A stretch of 64,000 bases of DNA, from positions 1 to 64,000 of IMG/VR virus record IMGVR_UViG_3300028045_000010; one strand, 5' to 3'. The notes below the pieces were generated by a model. It worked only from the letters and a program-made list of their open reading frames with translations. It ran no database searches and was not told the DNA's origin. The stretch is from a virus. Below are positions 7,391-24,826 of the stretch, in pieces; the stretch's first letter is position 1; each line of letters opens with the position of its first letter. A program made the position numbers and the translations under genes.

Positions 7391-7909
7391 TTAATTTATA
7401 AAATCAATTAGACTTTTCCATTTCATTAAATTATTATTATCTATTTGTATTTTAAAGTTATATAATTTATCATTTTCTAAAAATAATTGCTTTTTGACTT
7501 TTGGAACATTATAATAGTTGTCACCGTAAATTTCATTCACTACTTCTAAATCGCTTTTTTTATCATAATAAAATTCTGGATGCTTTCTTTCTATATTATC
7601 ATCTTCCTTTTCTTTTTCTTCTGGGTGGTTGGAGTTAATAACATTTTCCCTCTTAACAACAGACATCCAACTTTCCCCAGCCTCAAATCTGTGTCTAAAC
7701 ATTATTGGAGTATCATATTTTACAACATTCTTATCTATGCCGTAATTTTCCACTCTATATATTGTAGAGCCAGTTAAAAAATAATATGACAAAACACCCT
7801 CTTCATTGTAAGGGTTGTTGTTTTTCTCTATTAATAATTCAACTTCACTATTGGTAGATTCTTTGTACTTAAACAAAAATCCTTTTTTATCATATTCAAA
7901 ATAATACAT
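7391..7909 (-). CDS. Hypothetical protein
   Basis: 172-aa ORF; contains VELLIEK and KKQLFLE. Confidence 0.65.
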   Translation of the reverse strand: MYYFEYDKKGFLFKYKESTNSEVELLIEKNNNPYNEEGVLSYYFLTGSTIYRVENYGIDKNVVKYDTPIMFRHRFEAGESWMSVVKRENVINSNHPEEKEKEDDNIERKHPEFYYDKKSDLEVVNEIYGDNYYNVPKVKKQLFLENDKLYNFKIQIDNNNLMKWKSLIDFIN

Positions 7910-23588: not shown

Positions 23589-24107
23589 TTATTCTTTTTT
23601 CACTTTCCACATTGGAACAAATCCTGCATATCCTTCATCTATAACATTTGCCCAATGGTCAAGATATCCATCTGCTCCAAATTGTTGTTGGCCTGGAGCT
23701 CGGAACTCTTGTCTTTTTTCATTCCACTGTGCTATTCCACCAAATCTTGCAACATTTTTTGCACCTTCTTCACAATCGTACCAAGCTCCATCTTCTAACT
23801 CTTCTTTTGGAATTGCTTTTTTTAATAATTCCAAATCTCTCTCTCTAGTCCATTCGATACCTTTTATTCTCTCTTCACCGTTATACCTTTTTCTTTCATA
23901 CTCTAAGATTTTATCAATCTTATCTTTATCTTTTATATCCTTTTCAAGCTTTTCTCTTTTATTTTTCCAAAACTCTTCTTCTTCCCACTCAATATAAAGT
24001 TTTACTAGTTTTACAATTCTTTCATTTTGTTCTTTACCGTATCTAGCTCCATAATTTGCTTTTACTAATCTATCGTACCAATCTTTATATTTTCCTTTAA
24101 ATTCCAT
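23589..24107 (-). CDS. Hypothetical protein, first gene after the attenuator
   Basis: 172-aa charged, Trp-rich ORF. Confidence 0.7.
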   Translation of the reverse strand: MEFKGKYKDWYDRLVKANYGARYGKEQNERIVKLVKLYIEWEEEEFWKNKREKLEKDIKDKDKIDKILEYERKRYNGEERIKGIEWTRERDLELLKKAIPKEELEDGAWYDCEEGAKNVARFGGIAQWNEKRQEFRAPGQQQFGADGYLDHWANVIDEGYAGFVPMWKVKKE

Positions 24108-24125
24108 TTTTCAATTTTTAAGCAT

Positions 24126-24158
24126 AAAAAAACCCGAATCATTTTAAGTGATTCGGGT
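24126..24158 (-). terminator. Attenuator terminator
   Basis: ACCCGAATCA-cttaaaa-TGATTCGGGT followed by TTTTTT, 18 nt upstream of the 23589-24107 start. Confidence 0.85.
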
Positions 24159-24208
24159 GTGTATAACGTTAGTTATTTTATGCGCTTAACTTACATCATA
24201 GCACACCC
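24155..24208 (-). promoter_or_regulatory. Antiterminator stem overlapping the terminator 5' arm
   Basis: GGGUGUG(C)UAUGAUGUAAGUUA pairs with UAACUAACGUUAUACACACCC. Confidence 0.7.
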
Positions 24209-24308
24209 TTTTAAATCTTGATTTATTATCATCATGACTCATCGTTATGTTTCCAAAGACTTTCGAATTGGAACAATAATTTGCGATATGTGTACTTGTA
24301 AGTTGCAA
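24186..24308 (-). CDS. Putative leader peptide (40 aa from TTG, or 18 aa from ATG at 24242)
   Basis: MQLTSTHIANYCSNSKVFGNITMSHDDNKSRFKRVCYDVS; stop codon lies at the end of the antiterminator 5' arm. Confidence 0.6.
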   Translation of the reverse strand: MQLTSTHIANYCSNSKVFGNITMSHDDNKSRFKRVCYDVS

Positions 24309-24361
24309 AAGTTTTTAATTTTTATTATTACTAAATATATTCTATTTTTCTAAATCTGATA

Positions 24362-24369
24362 CAAATATA
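24362..24369 (-). promoter_or_regulatory. Bacteroidota-type -7 promoter TATATTTG for the leader/tRNA operon
   Basis: Perfect TAnnTTTG 53 nt upstream of the leader start. Confidence 0.65.
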
Positions 24370-24439
24370 AAATTTTATTTTTAATATTCAATAATTATAA
24401 CGTTTTATTTTTTGAAATGTTACAGTTTTTTAAAAAAAC

Positions 24440-24826
24440 TTATTCTATTGCTGAACTTTGTAATTTAGTTTCAGTTTTTTGTCCCAATTTATTTGGATAA
24501 GCCAATTCATCAAGAGATTTATGTGGGTCTAATATTCTTGCGTTACCATAATGAAGAGCTTCCATTGCCTCATGTCTTAAAATTAAATCTATTGCAAGCC
24601 ATGCAGTCATTACTATAAACTTTTCTGTTGAACCATCAGGAACAAACCATTCTCTCCCATACCCAGTTCCAACTACTCCAGTGTTTGTGTCTGGTCTTCT
24701 AAATGATAAAGCAAAAGTGTTTCCATATTTTCCCAAGCTTGTAACTCTCCAATTCCATCCCATATCTATACAGGATGGTGCCATTGAAATTTTTGATAAT
24801 ATCTTTTCTATATTTTCTTTTTTCAT
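24440..24826 (-). CDS. Hypothetical phage protein
   Basis: RPDT...GYGREW...LRHEAMEALHY...DPH; TATATTTG at 24831-24838. Confidence 0.7.
   Translation of the reverse strand: MKKENIEKILSKISMAPSCIDMGWNWRVTSLGKYGNTFALSFRRPDTNTGVVGTGYGREWFVPDGSTEKFIVMTAWLAIDLILRHEAMEALHYGNARILDPHKSLDELAYPNKLGQKTETKLQSSAIE

What the first reader, a model, noticed from the sequence alone, without database searches (positions are those of the whole stretch)
24126..24369. Leader-peptide attenuator whose codons mirror the downstream phage tRNA array
Seen on the minus strand, in order: a TATATTTG promoter, a short ORF (40 codons from TTG or 18 from ATG), a ~20-bp stem, a strong terminator, one CDS and the tRNA array. 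The stem's 5' arm is covered by the last codons and stop of the ORF, and its 3' arm takes the ACCC base of the terminator. The last 18 codons are ATG AGT CAT GAT GAT AAT AAA TCA AGA TTT AAA AGG GTG TGC TAT GAT GTA AGT. Fifteen of these are read by anticodons encoded downstream, and every downstream anticodon (CAT, Ser-GCT, His, Asp, Asn, Lys, Ser-TGA, Phe, Val, Tyr) is represented; only the Arg and Cys codons are unmatched. Knowledge: in classical attenuation a ribosome reaching the stop blocks the antiterminator, while stalling upstream allows read-through; host anticodon nucleases deplete tRNAs during infection. Inference: a multi-tRNA depletion sensor that switches on replacement tRNAs on demand. 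Significance against AT-rich codon bias was not computed.
Basis: partly seen in the sequence, partly recalled or inferred. Interest (0 to 1): 0.86.

Follow-up and report, generated by a model that had tools for sequence, protein, structure and literature searches.

The report
Codon-matched attenuator gating phage tRNAs
A marine giant phage puts a tiny test gene and a switchable transcription stop in front of a block of its tRNA genes, and the test gene is written in the codons those tRNAs read, so the phage probably makes the tRNAs only when ribosomes run short of them.

Summary

Corrections:
- The ORF is more likely the 40-codon TTG frame. It is open in all three diverged lineages.
- An upstream strand (region 1) completes a trp-style 1:2 / 2:3 / 3:4 switch.
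- Detectable tRNAs read 13-14 of the last 18 codons, not 15. 'Tyr' rests on a permuted tRNA-like element.

The codon match exceeds chance (P about 1e-3). The decisive evidence is replication. Relatives carry two more leader-terminator units before two other tRNA clusters, and an unrelated phage clade carries a fourth. In all four classes the ORF is enriched in codons read by its own cluster. Three classes sample nearly every tRNA species there (the leader of cluster A does not), and the match holds only in the ORF frame.

Best reading: ribosome-mediated attenuation that senses the supply of the tRNAs it gates. Translation and regulated termination are untested.

Seven literature searches found no published account. 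This scan has noted the same design on other phage DNA. Verdict: a new variant of a known mechanism, of high interest.

The parts
24394..24423 (-). Sigma-70-like promoter-like site, GTAACA-18-TATAAT
   Evidence: 10 of 12 matches. The region as a whole has no more such sites than its shuffles. CGTTATAAT is kept in L005 and reads CGTTATATAT in L023.
24362..24369 (-). TATATTTG box (TAnnTTTG, the -7 element of Bacteroidota-type promoters; that consensus is recalled), with TTG 19 nt upstream
   Evidence: L005 has TACATTTG. L002/L022 have TATATTCG and L023 has TACATCG. The transcription start is not known.
24186..24308 (-). Leader ORF: 40 codons from TTG plus stop TAA (MQLTSTHIANYCSNSKVFGNITMSHDDNKSRFKRVCYDVS)
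   Evidence: The same frame is open in all 5 distinct homologues, while the other two frames carry 3-11 stops. 22 of 39 codons and 9 of 9 tRNA species match cluster B.
24240..24242 (-).
   Evidence: This ATG is not conserved in position: in L005 and L023 the in-frame ATGs lie elsewhere.
24290..24296 (-). Region 1 (AGUACAC), the anti-antiterminator strand; ORF codons 5-7
   Evidence: It pairs with GUGUGCU (24206-24200) in the MFE and RNAalifold structures. One G-C to A-U compensatory change in L022. Two of 7 pairs are broken in L023.
24251..24273 (-). Hairpin P2 (UUCCAA / UUGGAA)
   Evidence: L005 has UUUCCACU/GAGUGGGAA and L023 has ACUACU/AGUAGU at the same place, so the structure is kept while the sequence is replaced.
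24213..24240 (-). Hairpin P3 (GAGUC-A-UGAU, loop GAUAAUAA); holds the invariant codons CAT GAT GAT AAY AAA TCA
   Evidence: 9 pairs, 97.8% of cells paired, only one-sided changes.
24155..24208 (-). Antiterminator (2:3): GGGUGUG (24208-24202, codons 34-36) with CACACCC (24161-24155), extending to about 20 bp
   Evidence: -21.8 kcal/mol alone; 6 core pairs, 100% paired in 5 sequences, one G-C to A-U compensatory change and one U-A to U-G change, both in L023. L023 extends it to 12 bp with a different sequence.
24126..24158 (-). Intrinsic terminator (3:4): ACCCGAAUCA/UGAUUCGGGU plus U7
   Evidence: The stem co-varies (UCA/UGA becomes CAA/UUG in L002/L022). The next ATG is 18 nt after the T-run.
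23589..24107 (-). CDS of 172 aa of unknown function, first gene behind the terminator
   Evidence: No Pfam or PHROG family. AF2 model pLDDT 75.9, no fold match at E <= 0.001. 19 homologues; in the loci examined they lie beside tRNA genes.
23477..23563 (-). Atypical tRNA-Ser(UGA)-like gene with an 8-bp acceptor stem
   Evidence: RF01852, 28.5 bits, below the gathering score. Its homologue is called tRNA-Ser(tga) in L005/L024. It is present in L108, L022 and L023.
23240..23452 (-). 70-aa ORF between the first Ser tRNA and the rest of the array
   Evidence: No family. Conserved in L108 and L022.
22153..23237 (-). tRNA cluster B: Ser-gct, Lys-ttt, His-gtg, Asp-gtc, Asn-gtt, Val-tac, Phe-gaa, Met-cat x2, plus odd tRNA-like elements

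Best explanation
This is a ribosome-mediated (leader-peptide) transcription attenuator. It gates a phage operon made of a 172-aa gene and tRNA cluster B.

Proposed steps:
1. Transcription starts about 50-90 nt upstream of the leader ORF.
2. If no ribosome is on the leader, region 1 pairs with region 2. Region 3 is then free to complete the terminator, and transcription stops at 24126-24132.
3. If a ribosome translates the 40-codon ORF smoothly to its end, it occupies region 2 and the 5' arm of the long helix. The terminator again forms.
4. If the ribosome stalls earlier, at codons whose charged tRNAs are scarce, it holds region 1 or the P2-P3 domain open. Region 2 stays free and pairs with region 3, giving the antiterminator. 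RNA polymerase then reads through into the 172-aa gene and the tRNA genes.

The ORF is written in codons read by the tRNAs behind the terminator: Ser, Asn, Lys, His, Asp, Val, Phe and Met. The circuit is therefore a negative feedback on the supply of exactly those tRNAs.

Shown here: the anatomy, the alternative helices, the conservation and the codon statistics. Inferred: translation of the ORF, stalling, and regulated termination.
For: (1) Anatomy. The promoter-like boxes, ORF, alternative helices and terminator are in the sequence. The next gene's ATG lies 18 nt after the T-run, which leaves no room for a separate promoter.

(2) Conservation. The 330-nt intergenic region is 73-76% identical in L005 and L023, whose flanking 172-aa protein is only 52-53% identical.

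(3) Structure.
- RNAalifold on 5 distinct sequences gives P1 (1:2), P2, P3 and the terminator.
- P1 and the antiterminator each carry one G-C to A-U compensatory change.
- P2 keeps its structure with three different sequences.
- Fold z-scores are -3.9 and -3.1.

(4) Reading frame. The ORF frame is open over 40-41 codons in all 5 homologues. The other frames have 3-11 stops. The stop codon falls 4-5 codons after region 2 in all of them.

(5) Codon match for the window leader.
- 40-codon ORF: 22 of 39 codons and 9 of 9 species, against a base rate of 0.38; P(both) = 5.7e-4 over 15,735 CDS windows.
- 18-codon version: 13-14 of 18.

(6) Replication.
- Leader 2 before cluster C, in G001: 19 of 34 codons, 10 of 10 species, P(match) = 6e-5, coverage reached by 0 of 16,005 windows.
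- Leader 2 in G002: 13 of 35 and 8 of 8, or 14 of 35 and 9 of 9 once Cys is added.
- Leader 3 before cluster A (Ile-tat, Arg-tct, Met): runs of ATA and AGA/AGG, 6 of 23 against a base rate of 0.089, P = 0.02.
- Leader 4 in an unrelated clade: 17-18 of 29 codons, 9 of 9 or 10 of 10 species; coverage P = 1.8e-4, and 0 of 3,624 with that clade's own background.
- All 12 leader-versus-other-cluster comparisons give P >= 0.085.

(7) Frame specificity. The ORF frame always scores best, for example 19 against 12 and 9, and 20 against 7 and 7.

(8) Leaders 2, 3 and 4 fold into the same terminator/antiterminator logic.

(9) The four copies of leader 4 differ at 4 sites. All four are synonymous third positions, and two of them (ACG/ACA, TCA/TCG) stay within one downstream tRNA's decoding set.

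(10) Genes in this phage lack Shine-Dalgarno motifs: 2 of 54 ORFs have one, against 17% at control positions. A leader start without one is therefore normal here.
Against: - There is no direct evidence that the ORF is translated or that termination is regulated.
- The start codon is uncertain: TTG at 24308 or ATG at 24242. TTG starts are uncommon.
- Leader 1 is invariant at synonymous sites over long stretches. It also forms a three-way junction with conserved unpaired nucleotides, which is equally typical of a ligand- or protein-binding RNA.
- Between the window and L005, 14 codons changed the amino acid and 3 were synonymous only (my count on the codon lists). This shows no selection on the peptide. 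It fits an attenuator, but it also fits non-coding RNA.
- In G001 the enrichment of leader 1 is weak: 18 of 39, P(match) = 0.09.
- G001 has no Val or Phe tRNA among its 23, yet its leader keeps TTT and GTG.
- 17 of the 39 window leader codons are not cognate to cluster B.
- Leader 3 does not sample all of its cluster: 2 of 3 species in G001 and 1 of 2 in G002, with coverage P = 0.33 and 0.75.
- P1 loses 2 of 7 pairs in L023, and there the antiterminator state is the MFE.
- Covariation rests on 5 sequences, and 9 of 500 shuffles reach the observed score.
- The stop codon lies 13 nt beyond region 2. Whether a terminating ribosome masks region 2 is not established.
- The codon match was noticed post hoc.
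- A TAnnTTTG motif lies 12 nt upstream of tRNA-Ser(gct), at 23256. That is within chance density, but an internal promoter is not excluded.
Confidence: 0.8

Rival explanations
1. A riboswitch-like or protein-binding leader. The three-way junction (P1-P2-P3) binds a small molecule, a phage or host protein, or a tRNA. Binding stabilises P1 and so selects the terminator. On this reading the ORF is incidental.
For: - RNAalifold gives a three-way junction directly followed by an expression platform.
- A 30-nt segment, the P2 and P3 loops and the junctions are invariant between lineages whose neighbouring protein is 52% identical.
- The OFF state is the MFE in 4 of 5 sequences.
- Variable nucleotides fall in loops, in a bulge, or keep wobble pairs.
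Against: - No Rfam family hits the leader even at E <= 10.
- It does not explain why the frame stays open in all lineages.
- It does not explain why four leader classes, two of them unrelated in sequence, each spell their own cluster's amino acids in one frame only.
- Leaders 3 and 4 lack this junction.
Confidence: 0.08
2. These are ordinary small-protein genes of 24-41 aa, each followed by a plain and partly leaky terminator. The peptides have a function of their own, and there is no switching.
For: - The frames are open and conserved.
- Part of the peptide is conserved (HDDNKSxFxRVC).
- Differences among the leader 4 copies are synonymous only.
Against: - In the variable parts of leader 1, amino acids change freely: 14 codons changed the amino acid and 3 were synonymous only, between the window and L005 (my count). 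The class of codon is nevertheless kept.
- In every class, the ORF's 3' end overlaps a strand complementary to the terminator's 5' arm.
- Unrelated peptides would have no reason to mirror the tRNA set behind them.
Confidence: 0.06
3. A stand-alone phage small RNA that ends at the terminator, with the invariant 30-mer as its seed. The downstream genes have their own promoter.
For: - Promoter-like boxes and a strong terminator bracket about 190-260 nt.
- The 5' segment is invariant.
- Attenuator-derived sRNAs are known (rnTrpL; seen in the search listing and abstract of PMC6614838).
Against: - Only 18 nt separate the T-run from the next ATG, and only 15 nt separate the T-run of leader 2 from tRNA-Ala, so no separate promoter fits.
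- It does not explain the codon mirror.
- It is compatible with the main reading as a by-product rather than an alternative.
Confidence: 0.04
4. Chance: an AT-rich short ORF next to a terminator, with the codon overlap produced by codon bias.
For: - The match was noticed post hoc.
- The tRNA set reads 36-38% of all codons.
- Another frame also holds a short ATGATG ORF.
Against: - P is about 1e-3 or lower for the window.
- Three further leader classes replicate the pattern independently.
- The cross-cluster controls are null.
Confidence: 0.02

Closest known systems
Multivalent leader-peptide attenuators of amino-acid operons (thr leader: Thr+Ile; ilvGMEDA leader: Ile/Val/Leu; also trpL, hisL, pheL). 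Recalled; the 1:2 / 2:3 / 3:4 model for pheL was read in passages of PMC3082878.
   Same: A short leader ORF, three overlapping alternative helices, an intrinsic terminator directly before the regulated genes, regulatory codons for several amino acids, and default termination without translation.
   Different: - The regulated products are tRNAs (plus one unknown protein), not biosynthetic enzymes. The sensed molecules are the operon's own products.
- One or a few codons are present for each of 8-10 tRNA species, rather than long runs of one codon. Leader 3 is the exception, with ATA/AGR runs.
- It is encoded by a phage whose genes lack Shine-Dalgarno motifs.
- Region 1 lies near the ORF start, and two hairpins sit between regions 1 and 2.
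pheST (pheM) attenuator of E. coli phenylalanyl-tRNA synthetase (recalled)
   Same: A leader-peptide attenuator that controls a component of the translation apparatus according to the supply of charged tRNA.
   Different: It regulates a synthetase, senses one amino acid, and is cellular rather than viral.
T-box riboswitches (recalled)
   Same: A terminator/antiterminator leader that senses tRNA status and controls translation-related genes.
   Different: A T-box binds uncharged tRNA directly and needs no ORF. No T-box model hit was found at E <= 10. Here the read-out is inferred to be a translating ribosome.
Anabaena trn operon of 26 tRNA genes. It is silent under standard conditions, induced under translational stress, and repressed by TrcR (PMC10272220, abstract read; PMC8421152, search listing only).
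   Same: An accessory tRNA gene array that is expressed on demand when translation is impaired.
   Different: Control is by a ribbon-helix-helix protein repressor at the promoter, not by a leader ORF and terminator. It is bacterial, not phage.
Bacteroid-trp leader (Rfam; recalled)
   Same: A predicted leader-peptide attenuator in a phylum whose genes lack Shine-Dalgarno motifs, which is the likely host type here.
   Different: It is a Trp-codon leader before trp genes. It gave no hit.

Membership tests
Ribosome-mediated (leader-peptide) transcription attenuator | A short ORF in the leader transcript, upstream of the regulated genes | tested here: met
   The ORF is 40 codons from TTG, or 18 from ATG. 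The frame is open in all 5 homologues.
Ribosome-mediated (leader-peptide) transcription attenuator | An intrinsic terminator between the leader ORF and the regulated genes, with no room for another promoter | tested here: met
   The stem is 10 bp and is followed by T7. The next ATG is 18 nt after the T-run. The stem co-varies in relatives.
Ribosome-mediated (leader-peptide) transcription attenuator | An antiterminator helix that excludes the terminator and has its 5' strand inside the end of the ORF | tested here: met
   GGGUGUG pairs with CACACCC and overlaps the ACCC of the terminator. The helix alone folds at -13.6 to -21.8 kcal/mol. All 6 core pairs are paired in 5 of 5 sequences, with one compensatory change.
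Ribosome-mediated (leader-peptide) transcription attenuator | An anti-antiterminator (1:2) pairing that gives termination without translation | tested here: inconclusive
   AGUACAC/GUGUGCU is predicted in 4 of 5 sequences, with one compensatory change. It is broken at 2 of 7 pairs in L023.
Ribosome-mediated (leader-peptide) transcription attenuator | Regulatory codons that correspond to what the operon supplies | tested here: met
   22 of 39 codons and 9 of 9 species match, with P(both) = 5.7e-4. The pattern is replicated in three more leader classes. The 12 cross-cluster controls are null.
Ribosome-mediated (leader-peptide) transcription attenuator | The ORF is translated, and read-through rises when the ribosome stalls | not testable with these tools
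   This needs reporter, Term-seq or Ribo-seq experiments. The laid RNA-library contigs did not bear on it.
Known riboswitch or leader families of Rfam 15, including T-box and Bacteroid-trp | A match to a curated covariance model | tested here: not met
   cmscan of 21900-24500 at E <= 10 gave only chance-level hits in the leader: rox2 at 20.3 bits and NsiR1 at 18.1 bits. No hit reached gathering score.

The most novel reading that the evidence does not exclude
Phages run a general, self-tuning tRNA supply control. Each block of phage tRNA genes is gated by its own codon-matched leader-peptide attenuator, so the phage measures, codon by codon, whether host plus phage tRNAs keep up with demand. 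It tops up only the set that is short.

The invariant His-Asp-Asp-Asn-Lys block of this leader corresponds to the tRNAs that known anticodon nucleases cut: colicin E5-type enzymes cut Tyr, His, Asn and Asp tRNAs, and PrrC cuts Lys tRNA (recalled). The same device would therefore also act as an alarm that answers tRNA-cleaving host defences.

The design arose more than once. Leaders 1 and 2 are paralogues, while leaders 3 and 4 are unrelated in sequence.
Probability: 0.5. Interest if true: 0.92.

Novelty: new variant of a known kind. Interest (0 to 1): 0.88.

Why it matters
Phage tRNA genes are usually discussed as a fixed supplement for codon usage or as a counter to tRNA-cleaving defences. 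How their expression is controlled is largely unknown.

A leader ORF that samples the codons of the tRNAs behind a terminator would be the first case of classical attenuation applied to tRNA genes. It would be a direct feedback in which the product, a charged tRNA, is read by the ribosome that controls its own synthesis.

It would also give three practical things:
- a simple experimental handle, through reporter fusions and codon swaps;
- a way to predict which tRNAs a phage regards as limiting in its host;
- natural, compact, multi-input sensors of decoding speed.

The pattern recurs in three paralogous or analogous units of one phage group and in an unrelated clade. It is therefore a design principle rather than a curiosity of one locus.

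Tried and rejected
Searches for relatives
DNA for 14 of the 19 protein homologues could therefore not be fetched that way. I used the search for related loci instead.
- Scans of viral contigs with a 20-mer, a 19-mer and a 15-mer of the leader gave no new leader homologues. All 76 hits of the 15-mer beyond the known contigs lay in unrelated coding sequence.
- Genome contigs held no relative of the 172-aa protein.
- The GenBank phage collection held no match to leader 1 (only a 100-nt match to a Leptolyngbya phage, inside the upstream gene), leader 2 or leader 3.
- L023 upstream of its Arg-tct tRNA shows no recognisable leader 3.

Known RNA families
- Rfam gave nothing for the leader.

The 172-aa protein
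- No Pfam or PHROG family and no fold match at E <= 0.001. It gives no clue to a ligand.

Sequencing runs
- Two RNA libraries held only small contigs. One of 151 nt lies inside the 172-aa gene. One of 258 nt spans 23495-23751, across the gene end and the first tRNA-like gene.
- No contig lay on the leader. These are contigs and DNA carry-over cannot be excluded, so I draw nothing from them about transcription, ends or habitat beyond the 'marine/seawater' labels of the DNA runs.

Promoters
- I looked for promoter motifs inside the array. Two TAnnTTTG sites lie on the minus strand in 21900-24500, which is the chance density of 0.86 per kb per strand. This is no evidence for or against internal promoters.

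Ideas considered and dropped
- That the invariant 30-mer is a promoter. No sigma-70 or TAnnTTTG spacing fits; this was checked by eye.
- That it is a repeated phage promoter. It occurs once in the window even with 3 mismatches allowed.
- That the frame +1 ATGATG ORF is the leader. It ends before region 2 in L005 and matches cluster B worse, 12 of 40 codons with 3 stops.

Papers
- Supplementary files were not opened.
Full report
WHAT IS THERE

The window is the first 64 kb of a 72-kb IMG/VR virus record that CheckV estimates at 22% complete, so it is a fragment of a very large phage. DNA runs that hold it are labelled marine or seawater.

On the minus strand the finding region contains these features:
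- A sigma-70-like site, GTAACA-18-TATAAT, at 24423-24394.
- An ORF of 40 codons from TTG (24308) to TAA (24188-24186), with an internal ATG at 24242 that gives the 18-codon version.
- A long imperfect helix from GGGUGUG (24208-24202) to CACACCC (24161-24155).
- A 10-bp terminator stem at 24158-24132 followed by seven T.
- Only 18 nt later, the ATG of a 172-aa CDS (24107..23589).
- A tRNA array directly after that CDS.

ARAGORN and Rfam agree on nine tRNA genes: Ser-gct, Lys-ttt, His-gtg, Asp-gtc, Asn-gtt, Val-tac, Phe-gaa and two Met-cat. An atypical tRNA with an 8-bp acceptor stem and a UGA anticodon loop lies at 23563-23477. It scores 28.5 bits against Rfam tRNA-Sec, below the gathering score. 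ARAGORN calls its homologue in a relative Ser-tga.

No Tyr tRNA is detectable, even at relaxed thresholds.

IS THE CODON MATCH MORE THAN CHANCE?

As background I used 17,082 codons of 49 window ORFs of at least 120 aa. The tRNA set reads 36% of codons (eight anticodon species) or 38% (nine, with Ser-UGA).

For the 18-codon leader:
- It matches 13 or 14 of 18 codons and touches every species.
- Among 16,151 same-length CDS windows, P(matches at least as many) = 0.005 or 0.002.
- P(all species covered) = 0.002 or 0.001.
- Both together: 1.2e-4, or 0 of 16,151.

For the 40-codon ORF: 22 of 39 codons and 9 of 9 species, with P(both) = 5.7e-4.

These are post-hoc tests on one locus, so I looked for independent replication.

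RELATIVES OF THE LEADER

The leader itself exists in five distinct versions:
- the window;
- L022, 96% identical;
- the L002 group, 93% identical;
- L005/L024, 76% identical;
- L023, 73% identical.

In L005 and L023 the flanking protein is only 52-53% identical. The non-coding region is therefore under strong constraint.

RNAalifold on the five sequences gives four elements:
- P1: helix AGUACAC/GUGUGCU, pairing region 1 with region 2.
- P2 and P3: two hairpins.
- The terminator.

The evidence for each element:
- P1 carries one G-C to A-U compensatory change (L022) and loses 2 of 7 pairs in L023.
- P2 keeps its place and shape with three different sequences: UUCCAA/UUGGAA, UUUCCACU/GAGUGGGAA and ACUACU/AGUAGU.
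- The antiterminator core, GGGUGU/ACACCC, is paired in 5 of 5 sequences. It has one G-C to A-U compensatory change and one U-A to U-G change, both in L023.
- The antiterminator extends to about 20 bp in the window and 12 bp in L023, with unrelated sequence.

With P1 and the terminator enforced, the structure is the MFE in four sequences. For the window this is -49.9 kcal/mol, against -44.7 for the antiterminator state. In L023 the antiterminator state is the MFE.

Covariation support is thin: only five sequences, and 9 of 500 shuffles reach the observed score.

WHICH ORF?

The other two frames carry 3-11 stops. The internal ATGs are not conserved in position.

On this frame, region 1 is codons 5-7 and region 2 is codons 34-36. 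The stop follows 4-5 codons after region 2 in every version.

Between the window and L005, 14 codons changed the amino acid and 3 changed synonymously (my count on the lists). The peptide itself is therefore not conserved outside the blocks that are fixed at the nucleotide level. The variable middle nevertheless stays rich in Ser, Asn and Lys.

Genes of this phage lack Shine-Dalgarno motifs. An SD-like 4-mer occurs before 2 of 54 ORFs, against 17% at control positions. This fits a Bacteroidota-type host (inference). It also removes the objection that the leader has no ribosome-binding site.

THE DECISIVE RESULT: THE DESIGN RECURS

A BLAST echo of the terminator led to a second unit in the relatives G002 (L108) and G001 (L107).

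Leader 2:
- It shares ACATATCGCAA, GGGTGTG, ACACACCCGR, the terminator and TTTTTTTATGC with leader 1, so it is a paralogue.
- In G002, tRNA-Ala begins 15 nt after its T-run.
- Its ORFs are MKNLKTYRNIEPTITGTCPAYGWNNTGVFNDRLYMK (G002) and MKTINTYKNIRPTATGICPAYRWDGMGVLIHNSID (G001).
- Cluster C behind it holds Ala, Tyr, Gly, Trp, Pro, Ile, Arg-acg, Thr and Cys, plus Lys-ctt in G001.

Leader 3:
- It precedes cluster A, which holds Ile-tat, Arg-tct and Met-cat.
- In G002 the middle tRNA is split by a group I intron (Rfam 60.9 bits). Its anticodon was not determined.
- Its ORFs are MKKYNSISIIRRIRIESCPCLDIV (G002) and MKKINSISIAKRIRRNSCSSLDIV (G001), with runs of ATA and AGA/AGG.

Leader-by-cluster matrix:
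- Leader 2 against C, G001: 19 of 34 codons, 10 of 10 species, P(match) = 6e-5, coverage reached by 0 of 16,005 windows.
- Leader 2 against C, G002: 13 of 35 and 8 of 8, P(both) = 1e-3. With Cys added this becomes 14 of 35 and 9 of 9.
- Leader 1 against B: 22 of 39 and 9 of 9 (window and G002); 18 of 39 and 7 of 8 with P(both) = 0.03 (G001).
- Leader 3 against A: 6 of 23 codons against a base rate of 0.089, P = 0.02 (G001), but only 2 of 3 species, P(cover) = 0.33. In G002, 4 of 23, P = 0.054, and 1 of 2 species.
- All 12 off-diagonal comparisons give P >= 0.085.

The match is frame-specific: 19 against 12 and 9, 22 against 12 and 14, 20 against 7 and 7, and 6 against 1 and 1. This answers the worry that G+C-rich hairpins alone produce Pro, Ala, Gly and Trp codons.

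Leader 4:
- Distant homologues of the 172-aa protein's C-terminal domain (35-38% identity; L017-L020; contigs of 67-435 kb) sit inside tRNA clusters of another phage clade.
- In front of those clusters lies an unrelated 30-codon ORF, MSQIQYILDTLHLDHTSSTCESSIVMRREY, followed by a terminator.
- The cluster behind it is Ser-tga, (Ser-gga), Thr, Cys, His, Leu-taa, Ser-gct, Asp, Met and Glu.
- 17-18 of 29 codons match and 9 of 9 or 10 of 10 species are covered. Coverage P = 1.8e-4, and 0 of 3,624 windows with that clade's own background.
- The four copies differ at four sites, all synonymous third positions.

In leaders 2, 3 and 4, a strand at the end of the ORF pairs with the 5' arm of the terminator when the 3' arm is removed.

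MECHANISM

The best explanation is classical ribosome-mediated attenuation:
- Without translation, 1:2 and 3:4 form, and transcription terminates.
- A ribosome that runs to the end of the ORF blocks 2:3, and transcription again terminates.
- A ribosome delayed at codons whose charged tRNAs are scarce leaves region 2 free to pair with region 3. RNA polymerase then reads into the 172-aa gene and the tRNAs.

The codons are those of the tRNAs behind the terminator, so the loop is a negative feedback on their supply.

Shown here: the anatomy, the alternative helices with limited covariation, the conservation, and the codon statistics with cross-controls. Inferred: translation, stalling and regulated termination. 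My confidence in this reading is 0.8.

Weak points:
- The start codon is uncertain.
- Leader 1 resembles a riboswitch (a three-way junction with invariant unpaired nucleotides).
- Leader and tRNA content co-vary imperfectly. G001 lacks Val and Phe tRNAs among its 23 but keeps TTT and GTG.
- The position of the stop codon relative to region 2 has not been tested for its effect.

COMPARISON WITH WHAT IS KNOWN

The logic is that of trp, his, phe, thr and ilv leaders. The pheL model was read in PMC3082878; the others are recalled. The closest are the multivalent thr and ilvGMEDA leaders.

It differs in four ways:
- What it controls: tRNA genes.
- What it senses: the operon's own products.
- Codon design: each of 8-10 tRNA species is sampled.
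- Carrier: a phage.

No Rfam family fits, including T-box.

The nearest published on-demand tRNA array that I found is the Anabaena trn operon. It is controlled by the protein repressor TrcR (abstract of PMC10272220; PMC8421152 seen only in a listing).

Seven full-text searches found no description of a leader-peptide attenuator before tRNA genes. This covers only the held library, and supplements were closed.

After completing my own analysis I consulted the scan's notes. They report the same design on other DNA, including two relatives of this genome and Caulobacter phages. They agree with my result, but they are AI notes and not independent proof.

VERDICT

- It is a new variant of a known kind of mechanism, with high interest.

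Noticed in passing
window 23477-23563 (-): A tRNA with an 8-bp acceptor stem, a long variable arm, a UGA (Ser) anticodon loop and an encoded CCA. Its only hit is Rfam tRNA-Sec at 28.5 bits. It is conserved as the first gene after the 172-aa CDS in all lineages.
   Followed up: partly
window about 22822-23040 (-): An apparent circularly permuted tRNA-like element. The T-arm and 3' acceptor lie upstream of the 5' acceptor and D-arm. They are separated by two tandem units of about 47 nt, each with the hairpin TATACCCAAACGGGTATA. A CUGUAAA (GUA, Tyr) loop and complementary flanks GTCTACGG/CCGTAGAC are present.
   Followed up: partly
window 22080-22150 (-) and 22320-22405 (-): Two more structured elements that ARAGORN does not call at default settings. 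One is tRNA-like, with acceptor TTGCGAT/ATCGCAA, a CTCATGA loop and a long extra arm. The other is a long-stem RNA (ATGCTAT..GTGG / CCACACATAGCAT).
   Followed up: no
window 22493-22580 (-): The tRNA-Val(tac) gene is 88 nt long, with an unusually long variable region. Its counterpart in L108 is 76 nt.
   Followed up: no
L108 1113-1400: In relative G002, a tRNA gene between tRNA-Ile(tat) and tRNA-Met is interrupted by a group I intron (Rfam RF00028, 60.9 bits, 1136-1331). It occupies the place of tRNA-Arg(tct) in G001. Its anticodon was not determined.
   Followed up: partly
window 23589-24107 (-); L017-L020 3001-3204; L026; L027: In the loci examined, the 172-aa protein family (invariant PGQQQFG, AGF.P, DG.WY.C) lies beside tRNA genes, usually just before tRNA-Ser(tga), even in a distant phage clade. 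It has no family or fold match.
   Followed up: partly
window, all ORFs of at least 120 aa: Gene starts lack Shine-Dalgarno motifs (2 of 54, against 17% at control positions) and are preceded by A/T-rich runs. Together with the TAnnTTTG boxes, this suggests a Bacteroidota-type host.
   Followed up: partly
window 24121-24132 (-); L108 about 7795-7806; L026, L029, L030: The motif GGGTTTTTTTATGC (terminator tail plus ATGC) recurs after the terminators of leaders 1 and 2. It also recurs before distant homologues of the 172-aa gene. Its meaning is unknown.
   Followed up: no
window 24197-24235 (-): A second short ORF in the +1 frame starts at the invariant ATGATG (MMIINQDLKGCAMM). It is present in all lineages but ends before region 2 in L005.
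   Followed up: partly
L023 400-960: Upstream of tRNA-Arg(tct) in L023 lie an orphan 5' half of a similar tRNA and a long structured stretch, instead of a recognisable leader 3.
   Followed up: no
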